Shown: positions 52,720 through 62,837, numbered from the stretch's first letter. The stretch: 64,000 nucleotides of DNA from a virus (IMGVR_UViG_3300027869_000006:1-64000), one strand, 5' to 3'. Numbers and translations: made by a program. The notes: generated by a model from the sequence alone, not told the origin.

Positions 52720-55700
52720 ATGACCGCGCTCACGACGAACGGTTCGGCACAAGCGGCAACCACGCTCGCTGCTGCTGGCAAGATGTTTGCGGCGACGGGT
52801 GGGACGGGTGGGAATACCTCAACCAAGGTCGCCAAGAACACGACCTATGTGCAGATATTTGCCATTGGTACGACGACGACACAAGCGGGGGTCGGGAGTA
52901 TCCCTGCGCCGACGGATAGCAATTTCGCGGGTTGGATATGGGATGTGACGACCCTTGAAGGGCAGCGCATCGCGGCGGGGACCTGGACGCCGACCTTCCA
53001 CATGCTGGCCTCCTCTGCCGGCACGATTACCCCGACCGTCCAATGGTTCAAACGGTCATCGGCGGGTGTGTATACCTCCATTGGATCGGTCACCGGGTCC
53101 TCGCTCGTGCTCACTTCTTCCGCACAGGCACTTACCTTCACGCCCCCGTCCCTGGCACTCATGGACTTTGCCGTGGGTGACAAGTTCTGCATGTGGTTAT
53201 GGGTCGATATTACCGTGGCCGGTGGGAGTAACTCTGGCACGATGTCGGTCGTGGAGGCGATCAGTGGGAGCACCACGGGTACCGCATCAGAGGCTCAGGC
53301 CGTCACACCGGGGTACGCCCCATCGCCAGTAGCACTCACGGCCACGCTTGCAGGAGTAGGGACGCTCTCATCGTCGTGCTATCGCACCACGATCCTGGCC
53401 GATAACCCGCTGTACTACAACCGCGCTGGCACGGCTGACTTGGGAAGTCTGGGACATACCGCCACCATCCACGGCGGCGTCACGACCGGGCAGGCAGGCC
53501 TCCTGGTCAGCGATGTGCAGTCAAGCGACCTCTTTAATGGCTCGACCGGCTTTCTCACCGCGTCAGATACGGGGTTGCCGACAGGGGCCAGTCCGTGGAG
53601 TATCGAGATATGGATACAGTCTACCAATTTAACAGGTGACCATTCTATTCTCGACTTTGGGACAAGTTCGGGACTCAATTGGGCGGGTATCTATAGCGCC
53701 GCCGATCAATTCGTGGTGGGATCGTGGGCAAGCGGAGTCAATGCAAGTGCGCATGGCATCACGACTGGAACGACGTACTACGTCCTTGGCACATTCGATG
53801 GCACGAACACCTCCCTGTACGTGGGCAATCTCTCGACAGGGGCATTCAGTACCTACGGGCCTGTCGCCATCGCGTTCAGTGTCGTGCTCTCTGGTCTCAC
53901 CATTGGCGCAGATTCCGGTGGCGCCTATATCAGCGGGAATGCGCAAGAACGCGCCATCTATGGCGCAGCACTCACCGTCACGCAGGCAACGGCACACTTC
54001 CTTGCTGGCATCCAGGCGTTCACCCTCTCAACTGCGCTCGCCGACACCCTTGCTGGCGTGGGGACACTCACCGGGACGCTGTCGTTGTTAGGAGTAGCAC
54101 TCACAACGACAGCGGCCGGGACTAGTCTTCTGACCGTCTCTTCCCCAACGCTTGCCACCGCGCTCACGACGACAGAGGTCGGCAGTGGGACGCTTACCGG
54201 GACACTGTCGACCTCATTGACCCTGGGCGGTGCCACTGCCACCGGCGGTGGCACGCTTGCCGGCACGTGCTCGCTCTTCACGGCCCTCTCTATGACGATC
54301 ATACCGGGTGCGGGCATCCTCACCCCAACGATGAAAGCCGCCTACACGCTGAGTGGGGGCACACTCACCGGGTCGGGAACGTTGTCGGTCTCCGCCCCGA
54401 CTCTTGCGACAGCCCTCGCGGTCGAGTGCGATGGGGTGAGCAATCTTACCCCAACCATGATCGCGAGTTTTACCTTATCCGGTACCACGTTGCCAGGCAT
54501 CGGTCAGCTTTCCATCTCCGCACCATCCCTTACCACTGTACTGGCAGGTGAATGTGACGGGAGTGGAGCACTGTCCGGGCAGCTTGACGCTACCTACATG
54601 ATGAGCGGTGGCACGATGGATGGTATGGGGCAACTGTCCGTCACGGTCCCCACACTCACAACAGCACTCTCCGTTGAATACGATGGGGTTGGGATGCTCT
54701 CACCGACCATTTGGGCGAGTCTCTCGCTCGCTCTTACAGAGATAGATGGCATCGGTATGCTCTCTGTCGCTGCGCCTGCACTCACGCCGCCGCTCATGGT
54801 GGAATGTGATGGGATTGGAACGTTCTCCCCTACACTCTCGGCTTCGTACACACTCTCCGGTGCGGAAATGGATGGAGTTGGCACGCTCACGTGCATCACC
54901 AGCCTCTCGGCTGCACTGGCGGGTGAATGCGACGGCGTCGGGGCATTTCAGGCGACGCTGTCGGTCTCAGGGAGCAGTATCGCGCTGTCAGCTGAGTGTG
55001 ACGGGGTTGGGACGCTTGTGGGCACGCTCTCCGCGACGGTTGCACTTGCGATTGAGTGTGACGGTAGCGGGACGCTTTCGGCCTCGCCTTCCCTCTCCAC
55101 GGCACTCATGAGCGAATGTGGTGGGGTGGGTCGGCTTTTCGCCATAGTAGCAGTGACCACCGCACTTGCAGTCGAGTGTGATGGCATGGGGACCTTCACC
55201 CCGATACTCGAGGCATCCGTCCCGCTCAACCTGGCACTCACTGGAAGCAGTGCGCTCTTCCCCACGCTCTCACTGACGACCATTCTTTCCGTCAGTCTCG
55301 CGGGTGAGGGGATACTTGCCGGGACGCTCTCACTGCTGACCGCTCCACTGGGTATGACGCTTGCCGGGACTGGCACACTCGCAGCCACGCTTGAAGCATC
55401 AACCGCCCTGACCGCGCTCATTTCAGGCAGTGGGCAGCTTGCCGGAACGCTTGCACACATCACGGCACTCGCCTGTCTGTGCGCGGGAGTGGGCACACTT
55501 ACCGGGACATACTCACTCTCGGTTGCACTGTTCCTCACGTGCGCCGCTCGCGGGACGTTCGCCTTCATGGTCATTTCCAGGACGGGTGTGCTTGCCCAAG
55601 GCAGGAGTGGAAGTGGAACAGCGACAGGTCAAAGTGGAGTGCCTGGCGTGAGCAGTATCGGTGGGAGTGCTACGGCTCGTGGGCGCGATGGGAGTGAAAC

Positions 55701-55731
55701 CGCTCTCGGTCGTAATGGCATACTTCATTAG
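52720..55731 (+). CDS. tail fibre/adhesin with LamG-like domain and ~22-aa repeats
   Basis: Repeats LA(V/G)ECDGVGTL..TL; LamG-like WSIEIW. Confidence 0.7.
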   Translation: MTALTTNGSAQAATTLAAAGKMFAATGGTGGNTSTKVAKNTTYVQIFAIGTTTTQAGVGSIPAPTDSNFAGWIWDVTTLEGQRIAAGTWTPTFHMLASSAGTITPTVQWFKRSSAGVYTSIGSVTGSSLVLTSSAQALTFTPPSLALMDFAVGDKFCMWLWVDITVAGGSNSGTMSVVEAISGSTTGTASEAQAVTPGYAPSPVALTATLAGVGTLSSSCYRTTILADNPLYYNRAGTADLGSLGHTATIHGGVTTGQAGLLVSDVQSSDLFNGSTGFLTASDTGLPTGASPWSIEIWIQSTNLTGDHSILDFGTSSGLNWAGIYSAADQFVVGSWASGVNASAHGITTGTTYYVLGTFDGTNTSLYVGNLSTGAFSTYGPVAIAFSVVLSGLTIGADSGGAYISGNAQERAIYGAALTVTQATAHFLAGIQAFTLSTALADTLAGVGTLTGTLSLLGVALTTTAAGTSLLTVSSPTLATALTTTEVGSGTLTGTLSTSLTLGGATATGGGTLAGTCSLFTALSMTIIPGAGILTPTMKAAYTLSGGTLTGSGTLSVSAPTLATALAVECDGVSNLTPTMIASFTLSGTTLPGIGQLSISAPSLTTVLAGECDGSGALSGQLDATYMMSGGTMDGMGQLSVTVPTLTTALSVEYDGVGMLSPTIWASLSLALTEIDGIGMLSVAAPALTPPLMVECDGIGTFSPTLSASYTLSGAEMDGVGTLTCITSLSAALAGECDGVGAFQATLSVSGSSIALSAECDGVGTLVGTLSATVALAIECDGSGTLSASPSLSTALMSECGGVGRLFAIVAVTTALAVECDGMGTFTPILEASVPLNLALTGSSALFPTLSLTTILSVSLAGEGILAGTLSLLTAPLGMTLAGTGTLAATLEASTALTALISGSGQLAGTLAHITALACLCAGVGTLTGTYSLSVALFLTCAARGTFAFMVISRTGVLAQGRSGSGTATGQSGVPGVSSIGGSATARGRDGSETALGRNGILH

Positions 55732-56089: not shown

Positions 56090-57330
56090 GTCAAATACCC
56101 CATGAATAAATTCAGGGGCTTGCAGCTAGGCGCGTCCTGCTACAGTAGGCACTTTGACGGGTGCCCGAGAGATATTGATGGCAGCATTGATGTCAGCGTT
56201 CATCGACATGCCGCACTTGACACAACAGAAGGAGACTTGACTCTTGCGGTTCTCTTTCGCACAGTGCCCACAAGCAGAGCACGTTCGAGACGTATTGCGG
56301 GGGTCTACCGTGTGTAACGACACACCAGCAAGAGCAGCCTTATACGAGAGGAATTGACGAAGTTAAGCAAAGGCCCAGGATGTAAAGCGATTGCGCTGAG
56401 AACGTCTAACCGTGCTATCGGTGCGTTTCCGAATGTGCCTGAGTTCTTCAATCGCTATTCCTTGTTTGTTGGCCTTTGCTTTCGCAATGATCCGTTTGGA
56501 GATCACATGATTGGTATTGCGCTTGAACCTGGCTTCTTTGCCAGAGAGCTTCTTGAGATGCCGTTTGGCGGATTTCGTGCCGCGCTTTTGCAAACGTTGA
56601 CGCAAGGCGTGCATACGTGTACGCACCTTCTCAACCTGCTCACCGCTAAAGGTGTCCCCGTCACTGTCGGTCGCCAGGTTGACGATGCCAAGATCGATGC
56701 CAAGCGTCTCAGTCACTTCATCGGGCGTAGGTTCTGGAACATCAAGCGTGACAGCCAGGTAGAAGGTACCATCACGCCAAATCAAATCGGCCTGTCCTTT
56801 GATCTTGTCCATACGGGCTTGCTGATAGCCACCAATGCGGAAGGGCACAAGTACCCGTCCAGTGGTTGTCAAGAGGGAAACGGTAGTGAGTCCTTTGAAG
56901 GACATCACGCGGGGATCATAGACAATGGCACCTCTGGCATCAAACGTTGGCATGATACTCTTGTCGCGCTTGTAGGCTTCGGTCGCTTTGCTAATACAGC
57001 GGATGGCGAGTTGAGCAGGCAGATTGTACCACTTGCGCAAATAGCCATAGACCAGCTTTTGCAGTGCAAACTTATTGGCACTCTTCTCCAGAAAGGCGAT
57101 TTGCGCCACATAGTTTGCCCCTGCATTGAAGCAATCCATCGTCAACAACAAGGCTTTGTATTGTTCTTCAGTTGGGGCAAGCTTCAAGAGCATCGTTTGT
57201 TTCATAGACATATTGTAGCATCATTGATGAAAGTTGTCAATAGGCGAGATGATACCCAACCCATCTTGCCCATAAGGAAGGGCTTGCTTACCCCATGCTT
57301 AAAAGACAGGGACTTCCGCAAGCCCGATTG
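56090..57330 (-). mobile_element. IS200/IS605-family tnpB-only element (decayed)
   Basis: Left end after TCAC with hairpin GGGCTTGC/GCAAGCCC (57280-57325); right end CAAGCCCC..GGGGTATTTGAC ending at 56090. Confidence 0.8.
56126..57205 (-). pseudogene. tnpB: tnpB pseudogene (nonsense plus frameshift)
   Basis: GIDLG, IEEL; TAA at 56363-56365; 1-nt frameshift near 56340; then VDPRNTSRTC..CG..NADINAAINI. Confidence 0.85.
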
Positions 57331-58426: not shown

Positions 58427-58560
58427 AGTGGTTTTTCAGATGGGTCCATCAAGTGATGTCTTTGTTACACAAGAGGCGCAGCTATAGCGAAACGATCCTG
58501 GCTGAGAAGCCGATCCGTTACTATCGACTCGATGGAAGTGACACAACACGTGAGCAATGA
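58423..58560 (+). CDS. small ORF carrying a LamG N-terminal remnant
   Basis: YSETILAEKPIRYYRL resembles YRTTILADNPLYYNR in the 52720 product. Confidence 0.4.
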   Translation: MKWFFRWVHQVMSLLHKRRSYSETILAEKPIRYYRLDGSDTTREQ

Positions 58561-59275
58561 AGAGTGCAAACTGATTGCATACCAACTCTATGATGGTGAT
58601 CTCCCCATGCAAATCGTTCCGGCACCGCGCAAACGGCAGTGGATGGATCAGACGCCACAGAGTTTTGCGAACCGTTGCCTCCCGCTCTTACTGGGAAATG
58701 CGAGCGGCTGGTGGCTCTTGAACACGCACGAGATACAGGTGACCTGGAACGGCGGCACTGATCTCTCCGCGCTCACCATCGCGGGTCGGGGTAGTTCGGA
58801 GACCGGCTATGCACTGAGCCATTTTGGTAACGGTCTCTTAACTTGGAATATTCCCCTGCTCTTTTCCACGCCCCCTGGATATAATTTGCTGGTACGTGGC
58901 CCTGCAAACTGGCCCAAAGACGGGGCATACGCACTGGACGGGCTTGTGGAGACAGATCACGCTGTGGCGACATGGACCATGAACTGGAAGATGACGCGGC
59001 CTGGCCTGACCGTCACCTTTGCCAAGGGCGAACCGATAGCACAAATCGTGCCACAGAAGCGTGGAGAACTAGAGACATTCACCCCGCAAGTACGGAACAT
59101 CAGAGAGGCACCAGAGTTACAAGCTGCATACAATGCGTGGGCATCTAGTCGCTCAACATTCAATATGGAACTGAAGAGACCAGGGTCAGAGGCAGTGAAG
59201 CGGCAATGGCAAAAGGATTACTTCCAAGCATCCCATCAAACAAAGGTCGCATTGAAGGAGTTCACAACTCCATGA
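58532..59275 (+). CDS. DUF6065-like protein
   Basis: R.WMD.T...FANRCLPL, SHFG.G, GPANWPKDG, VETD, WQKDYF. Confidence 0.75.
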   Translation: MEVTQHVSNEECKLIAYQLYDGDLPMQIVPAPRKRQWMDQTPQSFANRCLPLLLGNASGWWLLNTHEIQVTWNGGTDLSALTIAGRGSSETGYALSHFGNGLLTWNIPLLFSTPPGYNLLVRGPANWPKDGAYALDGLVETDHAVATWTMNWKMTRPGLTVTFAKGEPIAQIVPQKRGELETFTPQVRNIREAPELQAAYNAWASSRSTFNMELKRPGSEAVKRQWQKDYFQASHQTKVALKEFTTP

Positions 59276-59311: not shown

Positions 59312-59896
59312 ATGGCAACGACACCGACAAAAACCCCGAAGCAGCAAGCCTCACTCGCAGGCGTCTGGCAGGGCATTGAGGCACCAATCATCGGTATCCT
59401 CCTCTCCCTTGCCGTAGCTATTCAGCAGTATTTTAGTACCCATAGTGCCCCAAATTGGGGAGAACTGGGAATGATCCTGTTCCCGACCGTCATTGTTGGT
59501 ATTGTGCAAGCACTCAAGCAGTTCAATGCAACACTCGGGCAGGCATCAGTTCCCATCGTCACCGTCCCGCCGCCCGCACCGGTTGTCTCACCATCCGACA
59601 TTGCGGCAGCGATACGACAGCAGGTACCAGGACTGGTCATACAACAGCCACCGGCACCACCGTCGTTCATTGCGCCGTCAGTGCCACCAGGAGGATACGA
59701 TACGACGCTGGTCCAACCCCTCTCATTCGCCCCTCTGACCACGCCTGCCCAGCCACAACAACCGTACACGTGGTCACAGCCAGAACCATCCCCGACACTC
59801 ACGACACCTGCGCCAGTAATTACGCCGGTATTGTCACTGCCAAGTACGTTTCCGCAAACACTCGATTTACCAATCGTACGACCACAAATTGAGTAA
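59312..59896 (+). CDS. putative holin-like 2-TM protein with Pro-rich tail
   Basis: GGAGG RBS; two TM segments; near endolysin. Confidence 0.6.
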   Translation: MATTPTKTPKQQASLAGVWQGIEAPIIGILLSLAVAIQQYFSTHSAPNWGELGMILFPTVIVGIVQALKQFNATLGQASVPIVTVPPPAPVVSPSDIAAAIRQQVPGLVIQQPPAPPSFIAPSVPPGGYDTTLVQPLSFAPLTTPAQPQQPYTWSQPEPSPTLTTPAPVITPVLSLPSTFPQTLDLPIVRPQIE

Positions 59897-59897
59897 T

Positions 59898-59935
59898 AAT
59901 AAAGGGTACTACATCTGCATGTAGTACCCTTTATT
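59898..59935. terminator. bidirectional intrinsic terminator
   Basis: Perfect 17-bp IR AATAAAGGGTACTACAT-ctgc-ATGTAGTACCCTTTATT between convergent units. Confidence 0.85.
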
Positions 59936-59941
59936 CATCCC

Positions 59942-60129
59942 ATACCATACCGCATCCCGCCGGACTGCACCCCACCCAGCCTTGCCAGACATTACCCCGC
60001 ATCGCCACGCCTTACCCCACCGAACTACACCTTACCAACCAGACCATGCCGAACCCGACCGGACCACGCTATACCGTACCTTACCTTACTGAACCCAGCC
60101 AAGCCGGACCTCACCATACCTACCGTGCC
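59942..60129 (-). repeat. GGY-NN pentamer array C (38 units), putative guide RNA
   Basis: Minus strand GGCAC GGTA GGTAT GGTGA GGTCC GGCTT...; 5-nt period with two 4-nt slips. Confidence 0.9.
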
Positions 60130-60130
60130 A

Positions 60131-60349
60131 TTAAGCGTATCGTGTTTGGTCTGTCTCCCAGTTCACTAAACGTACAGGTGTCACATCTAAGTCTGTGATA
60201 GGAATGCCATACTTTTCTTCAGCTAAACTCAGTCCTTCCTGAGCATCACTAGCGGTTATCTCACCCACTATAGGCACCTGCTGCTTTCTTAGCTTGGCAT
60301 GCACGGTAGTGTCATGTCCCTTATACCAAACATCGAACCTATGCAACAT
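60131..60349 (-). CDS. 72-aa accessory protein coupled to the Cas7-like gene
   Basis: TAATG overlap at 60347-60351. Confidence 0.65.
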   Translation of the reverse strand: MLHRFDVWYKGHDTTVHAKLRKQQVPIVGEITASDAQEGLSLAEEKYGIPITDLDVTPVRLVNWETDQTRYA

Positions 60350-60897
60350 TACTTCACCTTTTCCCATGACACAAGAGCAAATCTCCCATACGGCCCTTTC
60401 TTTGCAGGACGGAAGTCACCAATGCCAACAAGTCGCCCTGCATCGGTGAGTATGTCACGGATAAGACGTTCACCAACTAGATCGGTATCAATCTGAACAT
60501 CAAACTCCATATTCCACTCATCGAACATTGGCCTGTGGCGTAGAATACGCCCCCCAGTCGCTTTAATGACAACAGCCCGTGAGTCCACATGCCATTCCCC
60601 TACCAGAGGAATTTCAAATGGGCTAACATAGACCCCTGCCGCTACATCAGTTGTCGCAGCCCTCCGTCCAATTTTGTGTCGTGATGCTGCTGCAATCATT
60701 GACTGCCGAATATTCTCAGCCGGATAGAATGGGCTATGTTCATTGGTATACAGGCGACTTGCCGCATCTTCATGAGGAGCCGGATATTCTTTCCGACCAT
60801 GTGTTCCTGAAGTTGCTTCCTCTGCCGCTGCCTCATGAAAACGATTCACGATGAGCGGCGTCAAACTCGTAATGTTGACCTTGTACGTTACAATCAT
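60349..60897 (-). CDS. minimal Cas7/RAMP-like protein (182 aa)
   Basis: YKVNITSLTPLIVN, YPAENIRQSM, RHRPMF..W, C-terminal G-loop GRLVGIGDFRPAKKGPYGRF; AAAGGA RBS before ATG 60897. Confidence 0.75.
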   Translation of the reverse strand: MIVTYKVNITSLTPLIVNRFHEAAAEEATSGTHGRKEYPAPHEDAASRLYTNEHSPFYPAENIRQSMIAAASRHKIGRRAATTDVAAGVYVSPFEIPLVGEWHVDSRAVVIKATGGRILRHRPMFDEWNMEFDVQIDTDLVGERLIRDILTDAGRLVGIGDFRPAKKGPYGRFALVSWEKVK

Positions 60898-60928
60898 GTG
60901 TGTTATCCTTTCTGTGTGAGTAACTTGT

Positions 60929-60960
60929 GTGGTGCCCTGCCCCAGTGGTAGGGCTACCAC
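60929..60960 (-). other. hairpin 3' of array B
   Basis: GTGGTAGCCCTACC-actgg-GGCAGGGCACCAC. Confidence 0.55.
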
Positions 60961-60977
60961 GCGAAACAAAATGAACA

Positions 60978-61161
60978 AAACCATACCAGACCGGACCTCG
61001 CCAAACCCGGCCTTGCCAGACCGGGCCTTGCCAGACCGGGCCAAACCCGACTACACTAGACCTCATCATGCCACACCTCCCATACCATACCCATCCTTAC
61101 CGAACTGCGCCAGACCGCAACGTACCAGACCGCGGCAAGCCGGGCCGGACCCAACCTAACC
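60978..61161 (-). repeat. GGY-NN pentamer array B (37 units), putative guide RNA
   Basis: Plus strand NN-RCC units AAACC ATACC AGACC GGACC TCGCC...; one 4-nt slip at 61078-61081. Confidence 0.9.
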
Positions 61162-61172
61162 TATTCCTCAGC

Positions 61173-61370
61173 AAACCATGCTATACCCCACCTGACCGTA
61201 GCACTCCTTCCAAACCGCACCATACCCAACCAAGCAGGACCCCGCGTCACCGCACCTGATCGGGCCATACCCCACCTGACCAAGCCGTGCCTACCTTGCC
61301 GCACCAAACCTCACCTCACTCAGTCTTGCCTCGCTGGACCTAGTCGCACCGAACCTGACCTTGCCGTGCC
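61173..61370 (-). repeat. GGY-NN pentamer array A (40 units), putative guide RNA
   Basis: Begins ATGGCACGG like array C; two 4-nt slips; 11-nt linker to array B. Confidence 0.9.
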
Positions 61371-62005
61371 ATAATCCTGCTATAGGCCAATTTCACGCAG
61401 AACTCAACGTCATTCCATACCTGGGAGCCAGTGAAGCGAAGAACGTACCAGCCTTGATCTTCAATCGTATGCTGTCGCATATAGTCTCTATTTCGGTCTC
61501 TCTTGTGACTATGGAACGCTTGCCCATCAAGTTCGATTACTATCTTTGCTTCAACATGGGCAAAGTCTACACGATACTTACTAATCCGATGCTGTCGCTC
61601 AAGAGGGATATCTGGATACAGCAGGCACCATGCTTCATAAAAGGCTTCCTCGATGGGACTTCCATTCTTGACGGATTGCTGAATTTCCCGTAAACGATTA
61701 CGAGCCTCATTAAGTGCAGCCTCACGTTGTTGATTAGCAAGTCGCAAGGCTTCTACTCGCTCTGCTTCTAGTGCTTGACGACGTTCTAGGGCCTGCTCTC
61801 GCTTCTCCCGAATGGTTGCTACTTCAATCTCTCTCTGGACAGATTGCTGATGCTCATTCGCACGACGCTTCAACTCCCTAGCTTCCTGAATCATACTAGC
61901 TTTCTCTGCCGCAAGTTGACGTTGTATGGCAAGTTCATGCTCTCTGTCAGCTTGAAGTTTTCGTTGTTGTTCTTGATAGTCGTTGAATGCTTGCCAGTCC
62001 ATCAT
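61340..62005 (-). CDS. coiled-coil plus DUF559/Vsr-like PD-(D/E)XK endonuclease
   Basis: SPIE..QHRISKYRVDF..IVIELDGQAFH..RD..R..GWYVLRFTGSQV. Confidence 0.85.
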   Translation of the reverse strand: MMDWQAFNDYQEQQRKLQADREHELAIQRQLAAEKASMIQEARELKRRANEHQQSVQREIEVATIREKREQALERRQALEAERVEALRLANQQREAALNEARNRLREIQQSVKNGSPIEEAFYEAWCLLYPDIPLERQHRISKYRVDFAHVEAKIVIELDGQAFHSHKRDRNRDYMRQHTIEDQGWYVLRFTGSQVWNDVEFCVKLAYSRIMARQGQVRCD

Positions 62006-62007
62006 GC

Positions 62008-62181
62008 TTATTGTTCTCGTTTTGTAGGCTTTTGCTGTTTCTGTTGTACTCGTTCTAATTCTTGGTTCGCTAAACGGTCAAGAAGACTCACGATACTCTC
62101 CCCTGTGATGGCATGAAGCATACGCAAGGTGGTAAGTGTCCTTGTCCAGATGCGAGTTGTTTTGTAGTCATCGGTAGCCAT
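62008..62181 (-). CDS. 57-aa ribbon-helix-helix-like regulator, leaderless (not in ORF track)
   Basis: MATDDYKTTRIWTRTLTTLRMLHAITGESIVSLLDRLANQELERV...; ATG at the predicted TSS. Confidence 0.7.
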   Translation of the reverse strand: MATDDYKTTRIWTRTLTTLRMLHAITGESIVSLLDRLANQELERVQQKQQKPTKREQ

Positions 62182-62187
62182 GAAGTT

Positions 62188-62216
62188 ATTTTACTACAAA
62201 CAAGTGTTCTTGTCAA
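62188..62216 (-). promoter_or_regulatory. consensus sigma70 promoter of the Cas7-like cassette
   Basis: TTGACA(62216-62211)-N17-TAAAAT(62193-62188). Confidence 0.8.
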
Positions 62217-62276
62217 GAGGAAAAGAAGACGCCCTTGACACAAGCATATACTAAGAGCAGAAGGGGGAATTTTTCT

Positions 62277-62837
62277 TTGGAACGCGGGTCCGTTATTCTT
62301 TTTGAGAAGGATGGCAGTCTCTTCAATTGGCTCATCACGAAAGCAACTCATGGTCCCTATGTCCATGTGGAAATTTGCCTGGGCGAGGAACGCCTGATCG
62401 GTGCTCACGGTAACCGTCGCGGCATCTATGAGCGTGATTGGGCCGATGCACCTTCGTTAGTGACGGAGGTCTCTCTCTCCCCCTATGCCGATGAAGAGCA
62501 CATCGAGCAGGCCCTTACCTGGGCGCAAGAGCAACAGGGGCATCCCTATGGATGGTGGGATATCGCCAGTCAGTCCATCAAGTTCTTGTGGCCAACGACA
62601 CCGCTCCGGTTCAGCAAGTCAGACGCATGGGGGTGTGCAGACTATGTGACCCGCTATCTGATACAAGCAGGGGTGGCCTTGCCAGAAGACTTCATGGACC
62701 CTGGGAAAAACTCGCCCAACGATATTGGACGGTTGTTCCATCTCGTTCCACAACGGCCACAACGCATCAGAAAACGGGAGAGAGAGTTGAGGAAAGGTCA
62801 TGCCATTGCCGCATTTGCCGCCTCCAGACGAGGATGA
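62277..62837 (+). CDS. permuted papain-like (YiiX/YaeF-type NlpC/P60) amidase/peptidase
   Basis: His before Cys: GPYVHVEI, GHPY, WGCADYV, SPND; TTG start after AGGGGG. Confidence 0.7.
   Translation: MERGSVILFEKDGSLFNWLITKATHGPYVHVEICLGEERLIGAHGNRRGIYERDWADAPSLVTEVSLSPYADEEHIEQALTWAQEQQGHPYGWWDIASQSIKFLWPTTPLRFSKSDAWGCADYVTRYLIQAGVALPEDFMDPGKNSPNDIGRLFHLVPQRPQRIRKRERELRKGHAIAAFAASRRG

What the first reader, a model, noticed from the sequence alone, without database searches (positions are those of the whole stretch)
59825..62321. Guides bracket the cassette's own insertion point: possible RNA-guided homing with the DUF559 nuclease as effector
The two decoded targets lie within about 35 bp of the left gene's stop and at the right gene's start. 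In a cassette-free relative they would be neighbours spanning the empty site. The cassette is opposite-strand, looks more AT-rich, and carries a Vsr/DUF559-like nuclease with a long coiled coil; array A starts inside that gene's last 10 codons. Established analogy: T4 free-standing homing endonucleases cut neighbouring genes of related phages while the resident allele is resistant. Inference: the filament recruits the nuclease and drives cassette spread. The alternative is simple repression of a competitor's lysis-region genes.
Basis: inference. Interest (0 to 1): 0.82.

Follow-up and report, generated by a model that had tools for sequence, protein, structure and literature searches.

The report
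Phage VIPR guides aimed at neighbours
This phage carries a VIPR system, a CRISPR-like RNA-guided DNA-targeting kit first described in 2026, with an added nuclease; two of its guide RNAs spell variant versions of the two genes on either side of it, which points to an attack on sibling phages and possibly to self-copying, though the copying is not shown.

Summary
The 2.3-kb opposite-strand cassette (59898-62216) is a VIPR locus, a system described in three 2026 bioRxiv preprints. It has a promoter, a 57-aa protein, a DUF559 nuclease with a 108-residue helix, a staggered GGYNN array, vipr, a 72-aa ORF, a second array and a terminator.

Under the published 1-nt-skip code, the two guides of the second array decode in frame to diverged alleles of the flanking genes. 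B2 reads codons ending 31 nt before the left gene's stop. B1 reads the right gene's start. Protein-level scores are 57 and 61, against shuffled genome-wide maxima of about 37±3 (0/300 each).

The resident copies match only 62-65% at NN positions, below the published 80% target threshold, so they should be spared. Conserved Ser and Leu codons are mostly swapped between codon families.

Guides aimed at neighbouring genes recur in relatives, with or without the nuclease. In two sets a sibling allele matches better than the phage's own.

Homing is not shown. I found no cassette-free relative and no perfect target, and nuclease recruitment is inferred only from conserved synteny.

Earlier notes of this scan report VIPR loci, and the same logic of guides aimed at neighbouring genes, on other DNA.

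Verdict: known family, new variant.

The parts
62188..62216 (-). Cassette promoter, sigma70-like (TTGACA, 17-nt spacer, TAAAAT)
   Evidence: 11 of 12 consensus positions, directly upstream of the 57-aa ORF. This is a consensus match only.
62008..62181 (-). 57-aa first gene of the cassette, probably a small DNA-binding regulator
   Evidence: No Pfam hit of its own. The ORFs in the same position are RHH_1 in L113/L119 and HTH_17 (E 3e-15) in L107/L110. The function here is inferred from position.
61340..62005 (-). DUF559/Vsr-fold nuclease with an N-terminal helix of 108 residues (candidate vap accessory gene)
   Evidence: PF04480, E 1.3e-15. AlphaFold2 model, pLDDT 88.7: helix 2-109 plus an alpha/beta domain 117-218. 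Best Foldseek matches: I-Bth0305I homing endonuclease catalytic domain 3R3P (E 1.7e-5, TM 0.79), DUF559 protein 3HRL, and Vsr. D147, E158, D160 and H165 are invariant in 8 homologues. A homologue lies upstream of vipr in L001, L002, L106-L110, L113 and L119.
60975..61370 (-). vrRNA array A: five or six staggered guides (about 61370-61292, 61291-61208, 61207-61162, 61161-61078, 61077-60975)
   Evidence: GGYNN units with 4-nt junctions GGTA/GGAA/GGGA. It starts inside the last 10 codons of the nuclease gene. No target was found in the phage's own genome, the fetched loci or IMG/VR.
60349..60897 (-). vipr: 182-aa single-domain RAMP (Cas7-like) protein
   Evidence: phrog_4652, E 7e-17. AlphaFold2 model, pLDDT 87.4. 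Foldseek matches Csm3 and type VII Cas7, E 1e-7. There are 546 relatives in IMG/VR. tblastn E 3e-6 to the Suspvirus SUSP2 protein, which is flanked by GGYNN arrays.
60131..60349 (-). 72-aa ORF joined to vipr by a TAATG overlap (78 aa if read from the upstream ATG at 60367)
   Evidence: No family hit and not conserved in relatives. Function unknown.
60037..60125 (-). vrRNA B1: 17 GGYNN units plus the junction GGTT
   Evidence: Decodes to S/R-I/M-D/E-R-G-T-I/M-V-F/L-F/L-D/E-H/Q-K/N-G-S-I/M-Y. The resident peptide is SLERGSVILFEKDGSLF. Score 61 against a null of 37.3±3.6.
59937..60036 (-). vrRNA B2: 19 units ending in GGTAT-GGTAT-GGG, an end motif also seen in SUSP2 guides
   Evidence: Units 1-13 decode to P-H/Q-F/L-R/S-F/L-P-S-T-F/L-P-D/E-T-F/L. 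The resident peptide is PVLSLPSTFPQTL. Score 57 against 37.7±2.9.
59898..59935 (.). Perfect 17-bp hairpin with a 4-nt loop, a likely two-way terminator that closes the cassette
   Evidence: (I5). It lies 2 nt after the left gene's stop.
59807..59863 (+). Resident counterpart of the B2 target, in the C-terminal tail of the 194-aa two-TM protein (59312-59896)
   Evidence: 17/26 NN for 59825-59862, the unique best hit in 110 kb. Four of the six mismatched codons are Ser or Leu codon-family swaps, and the upstream part fits only with a 1-codon shift.
62274..62324 (+). Resident counterpart of the B1 target, at the start of the 186/200-aa gene (62235 or 62277 to 62837)
   Evidence: 21/34 NN, with 14/17 second codon positions matching. 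It covers the TTG start at 62277 that the database gene call uses.

Best explanation
The cassette is a phage-borne VIPR system. Vipr protomers coat GGYNN-repeat vrRNAs, and the NN dinucleotides read double-stranded DNA with one skipped base per codon-sized step.

This locus belongs to a sub-clade whose operon also carries a small regulator and a DUF559/Vsr-fold nuclease.

The two vrRNAs of the downstream array are programmed against variant (sibling-phage) alleles of the two genes that flank the cassette: the 3' end of the two-TM holin-like gene and the start of the putative peptidase gene. The resident alleles escape because only 62-65% of the NN letters pair. This comes partly from Ser/Leu codon-family swaps that keep the protein unchanged, and probably from a one-codon indel.

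Keeping the guides next to the immune alleles means recombination cannot separate weapon from antidote.

Shown: family membership, the decoding, the statistical link to both flanks, resident mismatch, conserved nuclease synteny, and the same logic in relatives.

Inferred: that a sibling allele with a match of 80% or more exists, and that binding silences or, through DUF559, cuts the sibling genome.
For: VIPR identity:
- RAMP fold.
- Homology to the Suspvirus Vipr, which has its own arrays.
- GG period-5 arrays on the gene's strand next to the gene in 43 of 105 related loci.
- The papers read.

Flank-directed guides: (0/300 shuffles each).

No self-target at 80% or more: the best self-match of any full-length guide is 72%. 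This agrees with the published control.

Recoding: at amino-acid-conserved sixfold codons in ten guide/neighbour pairs, Ser 6/6, Leu 10/13 and Arg 3/4 are in the other codon family.

Generality:
- 11 of 614 self-scan tests reach Z>=5, and all those targets lie within about 2 kb of the array. They include the DUF559-clade loci L113 (Z 11), L119 and L107.
- Sibling alleles are better matched than the phage's own: the L092 guide scores 17/24 on its own allele and 20/24 on L090; the L087 guide scores 17/26 on its own allele and 21/26 on L083.

Nuclease: conserved, with its catalytic residues invariant.
Against: - No target matching 80% or more was found for any of the seven guides in IMG/VR, JGI metagenomes or 185 related loci.
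- The flanking genes have almost no relatives in the databases.
- The choice of 13 of the 19 B2 units was made after seeing the data; the full guide gives only p=0.04.
- Part of the codon-swap count is ambiguous, because TTn can also mean Phe and AGn can also mean Arg.
- L001 and L002, which carry the same nuclease, show no guide aimed at a neighbouring gene within 5 kb.
- Expression of the vrRNAs could not be checked.
Confidence: 0.65

Rival explanations
1. RNA-guided homing. In a co-infecting sibling that lacks the cassette, the B1 and B2 filaments mark two sites about 90 nt apart around the empty site. The DUF559 nuclease, docked through its long helix, cuts there. Repair from the cassette-bearing genome then copies the cassette together with the immune flanking sequence.
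For: - The two targets bracket the cassette at 34 and 57 nt from its ends.
- The nuclease is conserved in the operon and its catalytic residues are intact.
- Its closest solved structure is a phage homing endonuclease domain.
- The nuclease-vipr module sits in at least four different genomic contexts, so it moves between phages.
- The resident alleles are mismatched, as in T4 Seg/Mob intronless homing (established knowledge).
- Earlier notes of this scan report the same logic elsewhere (unchecked).
Against: - No cassette-free relative, no perfect target and no variant that skips the cassette in the one run holding this DNA.
- Guides aimed at neighbouring genes also occur in VIPR loci where I identified no nuclease accessory gene.
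- The better-matched siblings I found carry vipr themselves.
- In L113, L119 and L107 the target lies in the middle of one neighbouring gene, not on both sides of the cassette.
- The Vsr/DUF559 fold is also common in proteins that have nothing to do with homing.
Confidence: 0.25
2. Silencing only, with an unrelated nuclease. B1 and B2 block transcription into the sibling's peptidase gene, as the type II VIPR of SUSP1 does. DUF559 would then be an independent free-standing endonuclease, or a general DNA-degrading helper that the filament does not aim.
For: - The published VIPR mechanism is transcriptional repression.
- B1 covers a start codon, and B2 would lie just upstream of it in a cassette-free arrangement.
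- Loci where I identified no nuclease accessory gene show the same choice of targets.
Against: - Silencing a lysis gene of a co-infecting sibling should be complemented in trans by the resident gene product (inference).
- The nuclease gene is fused into the operon in all 9 closest loci fetched besides the window, and array A begins inside its 3' end.
- The VIPR paper itself reads nuclease accessory genes as a sign of target destruction.
Confidence: 0.15
3. Self-regulation. The partial matches let the filament bind the phage's own flanking genes weakly and so time lysis.
For: The best matches of B1 and B2 in the phage's own genome are these two sites.
Against: - 62-65% NN pairing is well below the published 80% cut-off, and disturbing NN pairing abolished repression in the paper.
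- The mismatches concentrate at synonymous codon-family swaps, which looks like avoidance of pairing rather than tuning of it.
Confidence: 0.04

Closest known systems
VIPR systems (Vipr + vrRNA), type II of Escherichia phage SUSP1 and a P. fulva prophage (bioRxiv 10.64898/2026.04.26.720920, .720927, 2026.10.15.759431)
   Same: - A single-RRM RAMP protein homologous to the Suspvirus protein.
- GGY/NN pentamer guides on both sides of vipr.
- The 1-nt-skip code, with the skipped base at the codon wobble position.
- No self-target at 80% or more.
- Phage-borne, with targets in rival phages' loci.
- A staggered array form, as in that paper's fig. S18.
   Different: - The accessory gene is a DUF559 nuclease with a long helix, plus a small regulator, rather than the DNA-binding vap1.
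- There is no conserved structured tail between guides.
- Two guides aim at alleles of the cassette's own flanking genes.
- The host range is soil (Ktedonobacteria-like) phages.
Nuclease- or helicase-associated VIPR types III-V (same preprint)
   Same: A predicted nuclease is encoded next to vipr, which the authors read as target destruction.
   Different: Those nuclease types are described as enriched in cellular defence islands, and the one illustrated example is an HNH protein. This locus is in a 110-kb virus record and uses a DUF559 nuclease. I could not assign a type because the type tables are not held.
Free-standing homing endonucleases of T4-like phages (Seg, Mob; intronless homing) and I-Bth0305I
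   Same: A nuclease gene inserted between phage genes. The predicted target lies close by in the sibling allele. The resident allele is protected by sequence differences. The nuclease fold matches the I-Bth0305I catalytic domain.
   Different: Here specificity would come from RNA guides, not from the protein. No cleavage, cassette-free allele or co-conversion has been seen.
TnpB/IscB omega-RNA-guided transposon retention (own knowledge: Meers et al., Nature 2023)
   Same: A mobile element carries a guide that matches DNA at its own insertion locus, so a cut at the empty site is repaired from an occupied copy.
   Different: The effector is unrelated, the guide is contiguous, and the target is the exact empty donor joint. 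In this locus the guides read coding sequence on both sides of the element.

Membership tests
VIPR | Vipr protein: a small single-RRM RAMP with a G-rich loop, homologous to the described Vipr proteins | tested here: met
   AlphaFold2 model. Foldseek matches to Csm3 and type VII Cas7, E 1e-7. A conserved G-loop, GDFRPxxKGxxGR. tblastn E 3e-6 to the Suspvirus SUSP2 ORF, which is flanked by GGYNN arrays.
VIPR | vrRNA arrays of GGY/NN pentamer repeats next to vipr and on its strand | tested here: met
   Seven runs of 9-20 units. The same association is seen in 43 of 105 related loci, always on the gene's strand.
VIPR | NN dinucleotides read the target with one skipped base, which falls on the codon wobble position | tested here: met
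   B1 and B2 align in frame to the flanking genes only under the 1-nt-skip rule. A 3-nt-skip (period-5) reading found nothing outside the arrays.
VIPR | A natural target with at least 80% NN match in another mobile element | tested here: inconclusive
   None was found for the window's guides. Only exact sub-patterns could be scanned in the large collections.
VIPR | No self-target at 80% NN match or more | tested here: met
   The best full-length self-match is 72% (A3). B1 reaches 62% and B2 63%.
VIPR | vrRNAs are expressed and bound by Vipr as a filament | not testable with these tools
   The single listed run is DNA and is the probable source sample.
Homing endonuclease cassette (intronless homing) | A nuclease with an intact catalytic core | tested here: met
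   D147, E158, D160 and H165 are invariant in 8 homologues. The fold matches 3R3P, 3HRL and Vsr. Activity was not assayed.
Homing endonuclease cassette (intronless homing) | A cleavable site in cassette-free alleles at or near the insertion point | not testable with these tools
   No cassette-free relative exists in the searched data. The predicted sites lie 34 and 57 nt from the cassette ends.
Homing endonuclease cassette (intronless homing) | Patchy presence or absence at the same site in otherwise collinear genomes | tested here: inconclusive
   The module occurs in at least four unrelated contexts. No collinear genome was available for comparison.
Homing endonuclease cassette (intronless homing) | The resident allele is resistant | tested here: met
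   By sequence only: 62-65% NN match, with Ser/Leu codon-family swaps.

The most novel reading that the evidence does not exclude
A programmable, RNA-guided homing drive in phages. Two vrRNAs mark both sides of the empty site in sibling genomes. A DUF559 nuclease carried on the Vipr filament cuts there. Recombinational repair then copies the whole VIPR cassette together with flanks that have been recoded to resist the guides. This would make VIPR a self-propagating element as well as a weapon.
Probability: 0.25. Interest if true: 0.9.

Novelty: new variant of a known kind. Interest (0 to 1): 0.6.

Why it matters
VIPR was described only in 2026, and so far as a silencing system.

This locus adds three things that can be tested:
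- A phage-borne VIPR sub-clade with a conserved DUF559 nuclease.
- Guides aimed at sibling alleles of the cassette's own neighbouring genes, a pattern that recurs in unrelated VIPR clades.
- Self-immunity achieved largely by synonymous Ser/Leu/Arg codon-family swaps, the only silent way to escape a code that ignores wobble bases.

If cutting and copying were shown, it would be the first RNA-guided homing element built on a Cas7-like filament. It would bear on how RNA-guided immunity arose from selfish viral elements.

If only silencing occurs, it is still a clear case of a weapon genetically linked to its antidote.

Tried and rejected
- Period-5 (3-skip) gapped matching of the arrays to the window found only array-to-array hits.
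- Single-protein scans of IMG/VR for the right flanking gene and for the DUF6065 gene found nothing.
- Exact NNx pattern scans all returned 0 hits: B1 with 12 units in metagenomes and in IMG/VR, the shared L113/L119 guide, A2 and A4. Mismatch-tolerant scans of those collections were not possible.
- The window's guides against 1.34 Mb of related loci: the best match was 83% for the 9-unit A1 (15/18), near chance for so short a guide, and 69% or less for the six longer guides.
The three related virus records that could be searched hold no homologue of the right flanking gene.
- Sequencing runs: one DNA run, probably the source. No RNA holder is listed. No contig skips the cassette.
- Rfam: no family matched, and there is no hammerhead between the guides.
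- PADLOC and NCBIfam gave only weak DUF559-domain hits.
- Comparing L113 with L119 for a gradient of identity around the cassette was uninformative: the cassette is 75-86% identical and the flank 78%.
- Chance was rejected as an explanation for B1 and for B2 with 13 units (0/300 shuffles each).


Full report
**What is there.** The window is the first 64 kb of a 109,768-bp virus record. Between a 194-aa protein with two predicted transmembrane helices (59312-59896, +) and a 186/200-aa gene (62235 or 62277 to 62837, +) lies an opposite-strand cassette. On the minus strand, in order:
- a strong sigma70-like promoter (62216-62188);
- a 57-aa ORF;
- a 221-aa DUF559 protein (PF04480, E 1.3e-15);
- about 395 nt of pentamer repeats (array A);
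- a 182-aa protein (phrog_4652, E 7e-17);
- a 72-aa ORF joined to it by a TAATG overlap;
- about 190 nt of pentamer repeats (array B);
- a perfect 17-bp hairpin (59898-59935).

The repeats are GGYNN units in runs of 9-20, separated by 4-nt junction units that shift the phase by one base.

**It is a known system.** A literature search led to three 2026 bioRxiv preprints on VIPR, Viral Interference Programmable Repeat (10.64898/2026.04.26.720920.720927 and 2026.10.15.759431). They report the following:
- Vipr is a minimal RAMP protein that polymerises on vrRNAs made of GGY/NN repeats.
- The NN dinucleotides pair with double-stranded DNA under a '1-nt skip' rule, and the skipped base usually falls on the codon wobble position.
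- Natural targets are called at 80% NN match or more, and no self-target reaches that level.
- Arrays can be 'staggered', with guides overlapping by 1 nt.
- Some types carry nuclease or helicase accessory genes.

I tested membership here:
- The 182-aa protein folds with high confidence (pLDDT 87.4) and matches Csm3 and type VII Cas7 subunits (Foldseek E 1e-7).
- It has 546 relatives in IMG/VR.
- GG period-5 arrays lie next to the gene, always on its strand, in 43 of 105 related loci.
- It is detectably homologous (tblastn E 3e-6) to an ORF of Escherichia phage SUSP2 and about 100 related phages. In SUSP2 that ORF sits between GGYNN arrays, and those guides end in the same GGTAT-GGG motif seen here.

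I parsed seven guides, A1-A5, B1 and B2, and scanned the whole 110-kb genome on both strands under the 1-nt-skip rule.
- B1 (17 units) has its tied-best hit at 62274-62323 (21/34).
- The first 13 units of B2 have their single best hit at 59825-59862 (17/26).
- Both hits are in frame with the flanking genes, with the skipped base at the wobble position.

Because the code reads codon positions 1-2, I also scored the decoded amino-acid sets against all six reading frames.
- B1 decodes to S/R-I/M-D/E-R-G-T-I/M-V-F/L-F/L-D/E-H/Q-K/N-G-S-I/M-Y. The resident peptide is SLERGSVILFEKDGSLF. The score is 61, the next best place in the genome scores 36, and the genome-wide maxima of shuffled guides are 37.3±3.6 (0 of 300 reach 61).
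- B2 with 13 units decodes to 11/13 residues compatible with PVLSLPSTFPQTL. The score is 57 against 37.7±2.9 (0/300).
- The full 19-unit B2 gives p=0.04. The remaining six units fit only after a one-codon shift.
- None of the array-A guides has a significant counterpart in the genome.

The left site ends 31 nt before the stop codon. The right site covers the TTG at 62277 that database gene calls use as the start. With the cassette removed, the two sites would be about 91 nt apart. But these are diverged matches (62-65% of NN letters), not perfect ones.

**Other claims in the finding.**
- The nuclease model (pLDDT 88.7) is a single helix of residues 2-109 followed by an alpha/beta domain.
- Its best structural matches are the catalytic domain of the phage homing endonuclease I-Bth0305I (3R3P, E 1.7e-5, TM 0.79), the DUF559 protein 3HRL, and Vsr.
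- Array A does begin inside the last 10 codons of the nuclease gene.
- The AT-richness is marginal: the cassette is 0.503 GC against 0.529 for the genome, and its coding parts are 0.47-0.48.

**Relatives.**
- The nuclease is conserved directly upstream of the array and vipr in the 9 closest loci fetched (L001, L002, L106-L110, L113, L119; 42-56% identity). D147, E158, D160 and H165 are invariant.
- It is preceded by a small RHH or HTH regulator in several of these loci.
- The flanking genes are not shared, and the module sits in at least four contexts.

I ran a self-scan of 307 distinct guides in 185 loci. It gave 11 of 614 tests at Z>=5, and every one of those targets lies within about 2 kb of its guide. 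The targeted neighbouring genes are:
- in the DUF559 clade, a convergent holin-like gene in L113 and L119, which share an almost identical guide although their resident alleles differ (24/34 and 20/34);
- also in the DUF559 clade, a DUF4352 lipoprotein gene in L107;
- in other clades, a terminase gene, an SNase-like gene, a DUF669 gene, a baseplate hub gene, and vipr itself.

In two sets of siblings the guide fits a sibling's allele better than the phage's own. The L092 guide scores 17/24 on its own allele, 20/24 on L090 and 18/24 on L089. The L087 guide scores 17/26 on its own allele and 21/26 on L083. Those siblings also carry vipr.

Across ten guide/neighbour pairs I looked at sixfold-degenerate codons where the amino acid is conserved. 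They are mostly in the other codon family: Ser 6/6, Leu 10/13 and Arg 3/4, against 32-48% expected even at full saturation. One caveat applies: TTn and AGn decode ambiguously.

**How it most likely works.**
- Shown: this is a VIPR locus. Two of its guides are written against non-resident versions of the two adjacent genes. The resident versions fall well below the published recognition threshold.
- Inferred: sibling phages carrying the matching alleles exist. In co-infection or superinfection the filaments bind those alleles. The conserved DUF559 nuclease turns binding into damage.

The tight linkage of guide and immune allele has two possible explanations. One is selection against recombinants that would separate weapon from antidote. 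The other is homing proper. My evidence cannot separate them. No cassette-free relative, perfect target or cassette-skipping variant was found. The left gene has no homologue at all in 5.8 billion proteins.

**Novelty.** The system itself is already described. Three things are not in the three preprints I read:
- a phage-borne DUF559-nuclease sub-clade;
- guides that bracket the cassette's own position;
- codon-family recoding of the resident alleles.

Earlier notes of this scan report VIPR loci in other genomes. Two of them (e1-5991930 and e1-3299974) report guides aimed at the neighbouring genes of sibling phages. I did not check those notes.

**Verdict.** The homing reading is plausible but unproven (about 0.25). 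This is a new variant of a known kind.

Noticed in passing
window 59807-59863 and 62274-62324; L113, L119, L132, L092, L085, L022: Where the guide-decoded and resident amino acids agree at Ser, Leu or Arg, the resident codon is usually in the other sixfold family (Ser 6/6, Leu 10/13, Arg 3/4). This looks like silent recoding to escape a code that ignores wobble bases. TTn and AGn decode ambiguously, so part of the count is soft.
   Followed up: partly
L113:3803-3887 and L119:3672-3756: Two loci whose cassettes are only 75-86% identical keep an almost identical 17-unit guide against the adjacent holin-like gene. Their own alleles differ from the guide and from each other (24/34 and 20/34 NN).
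   Followed up: partly
L092:4860-4919 to L090:6056-6091; L087:4906-4970 to L083:4213-4251: These guides match a sibling phage's allele of a neighbouring gene at 81-83% NN but their own allele at only 65-71%. They are direct examples of sibling-allele targeting, and here the siblings also carry vipr.
   Followed up: yes
L022:3373-3432 (also L025, L026): A guide just upstream of vipr decodes to the N-terminus of the locus's own Vipr protein (18/24 NN). This fits the published note that some vrRNAs target rival VIPR systems.
   Followed up: partly
window 61292-61295, 61208-61211, 61078-61081, 60037-60040: Guides are separated by 4-nt units (GGTA, GGAA, GGGA, GGTT) that shift the pentamer phase by one. 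Several guides end in GGTAT-GGG, as SUSP2 guides do. There is no structured tail and no ribozyme between guides.
   Followed up: partly
window 56363-57211 (-): A 282-aa ORF resembling an IS605-family TnpB/OrfB protein lies between the tail-fibre region and the amidase gene. This naming rests on my reading of the sequence, not on a family search. L114, another VIPR locus, has a 32%-identical homologue about 5 kb from its vipr gene.
   Followed up: no
window 52720-55731 (+): A 1003-aa Ala/Gly/Thr-rich protein with about a dozen repeats of an 'ECDG(V/S)G(T/A)' motif. It is probably a tail fibre. It was not examined.
   Followed up: no
window 58532-59275 (+): A DUF6065 protein (E 8e-84) sits between the amidase endolysin gene and the holin-like gene. 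Its function is unknown and its place in a lysis module is unexplained.
   Followed up: no
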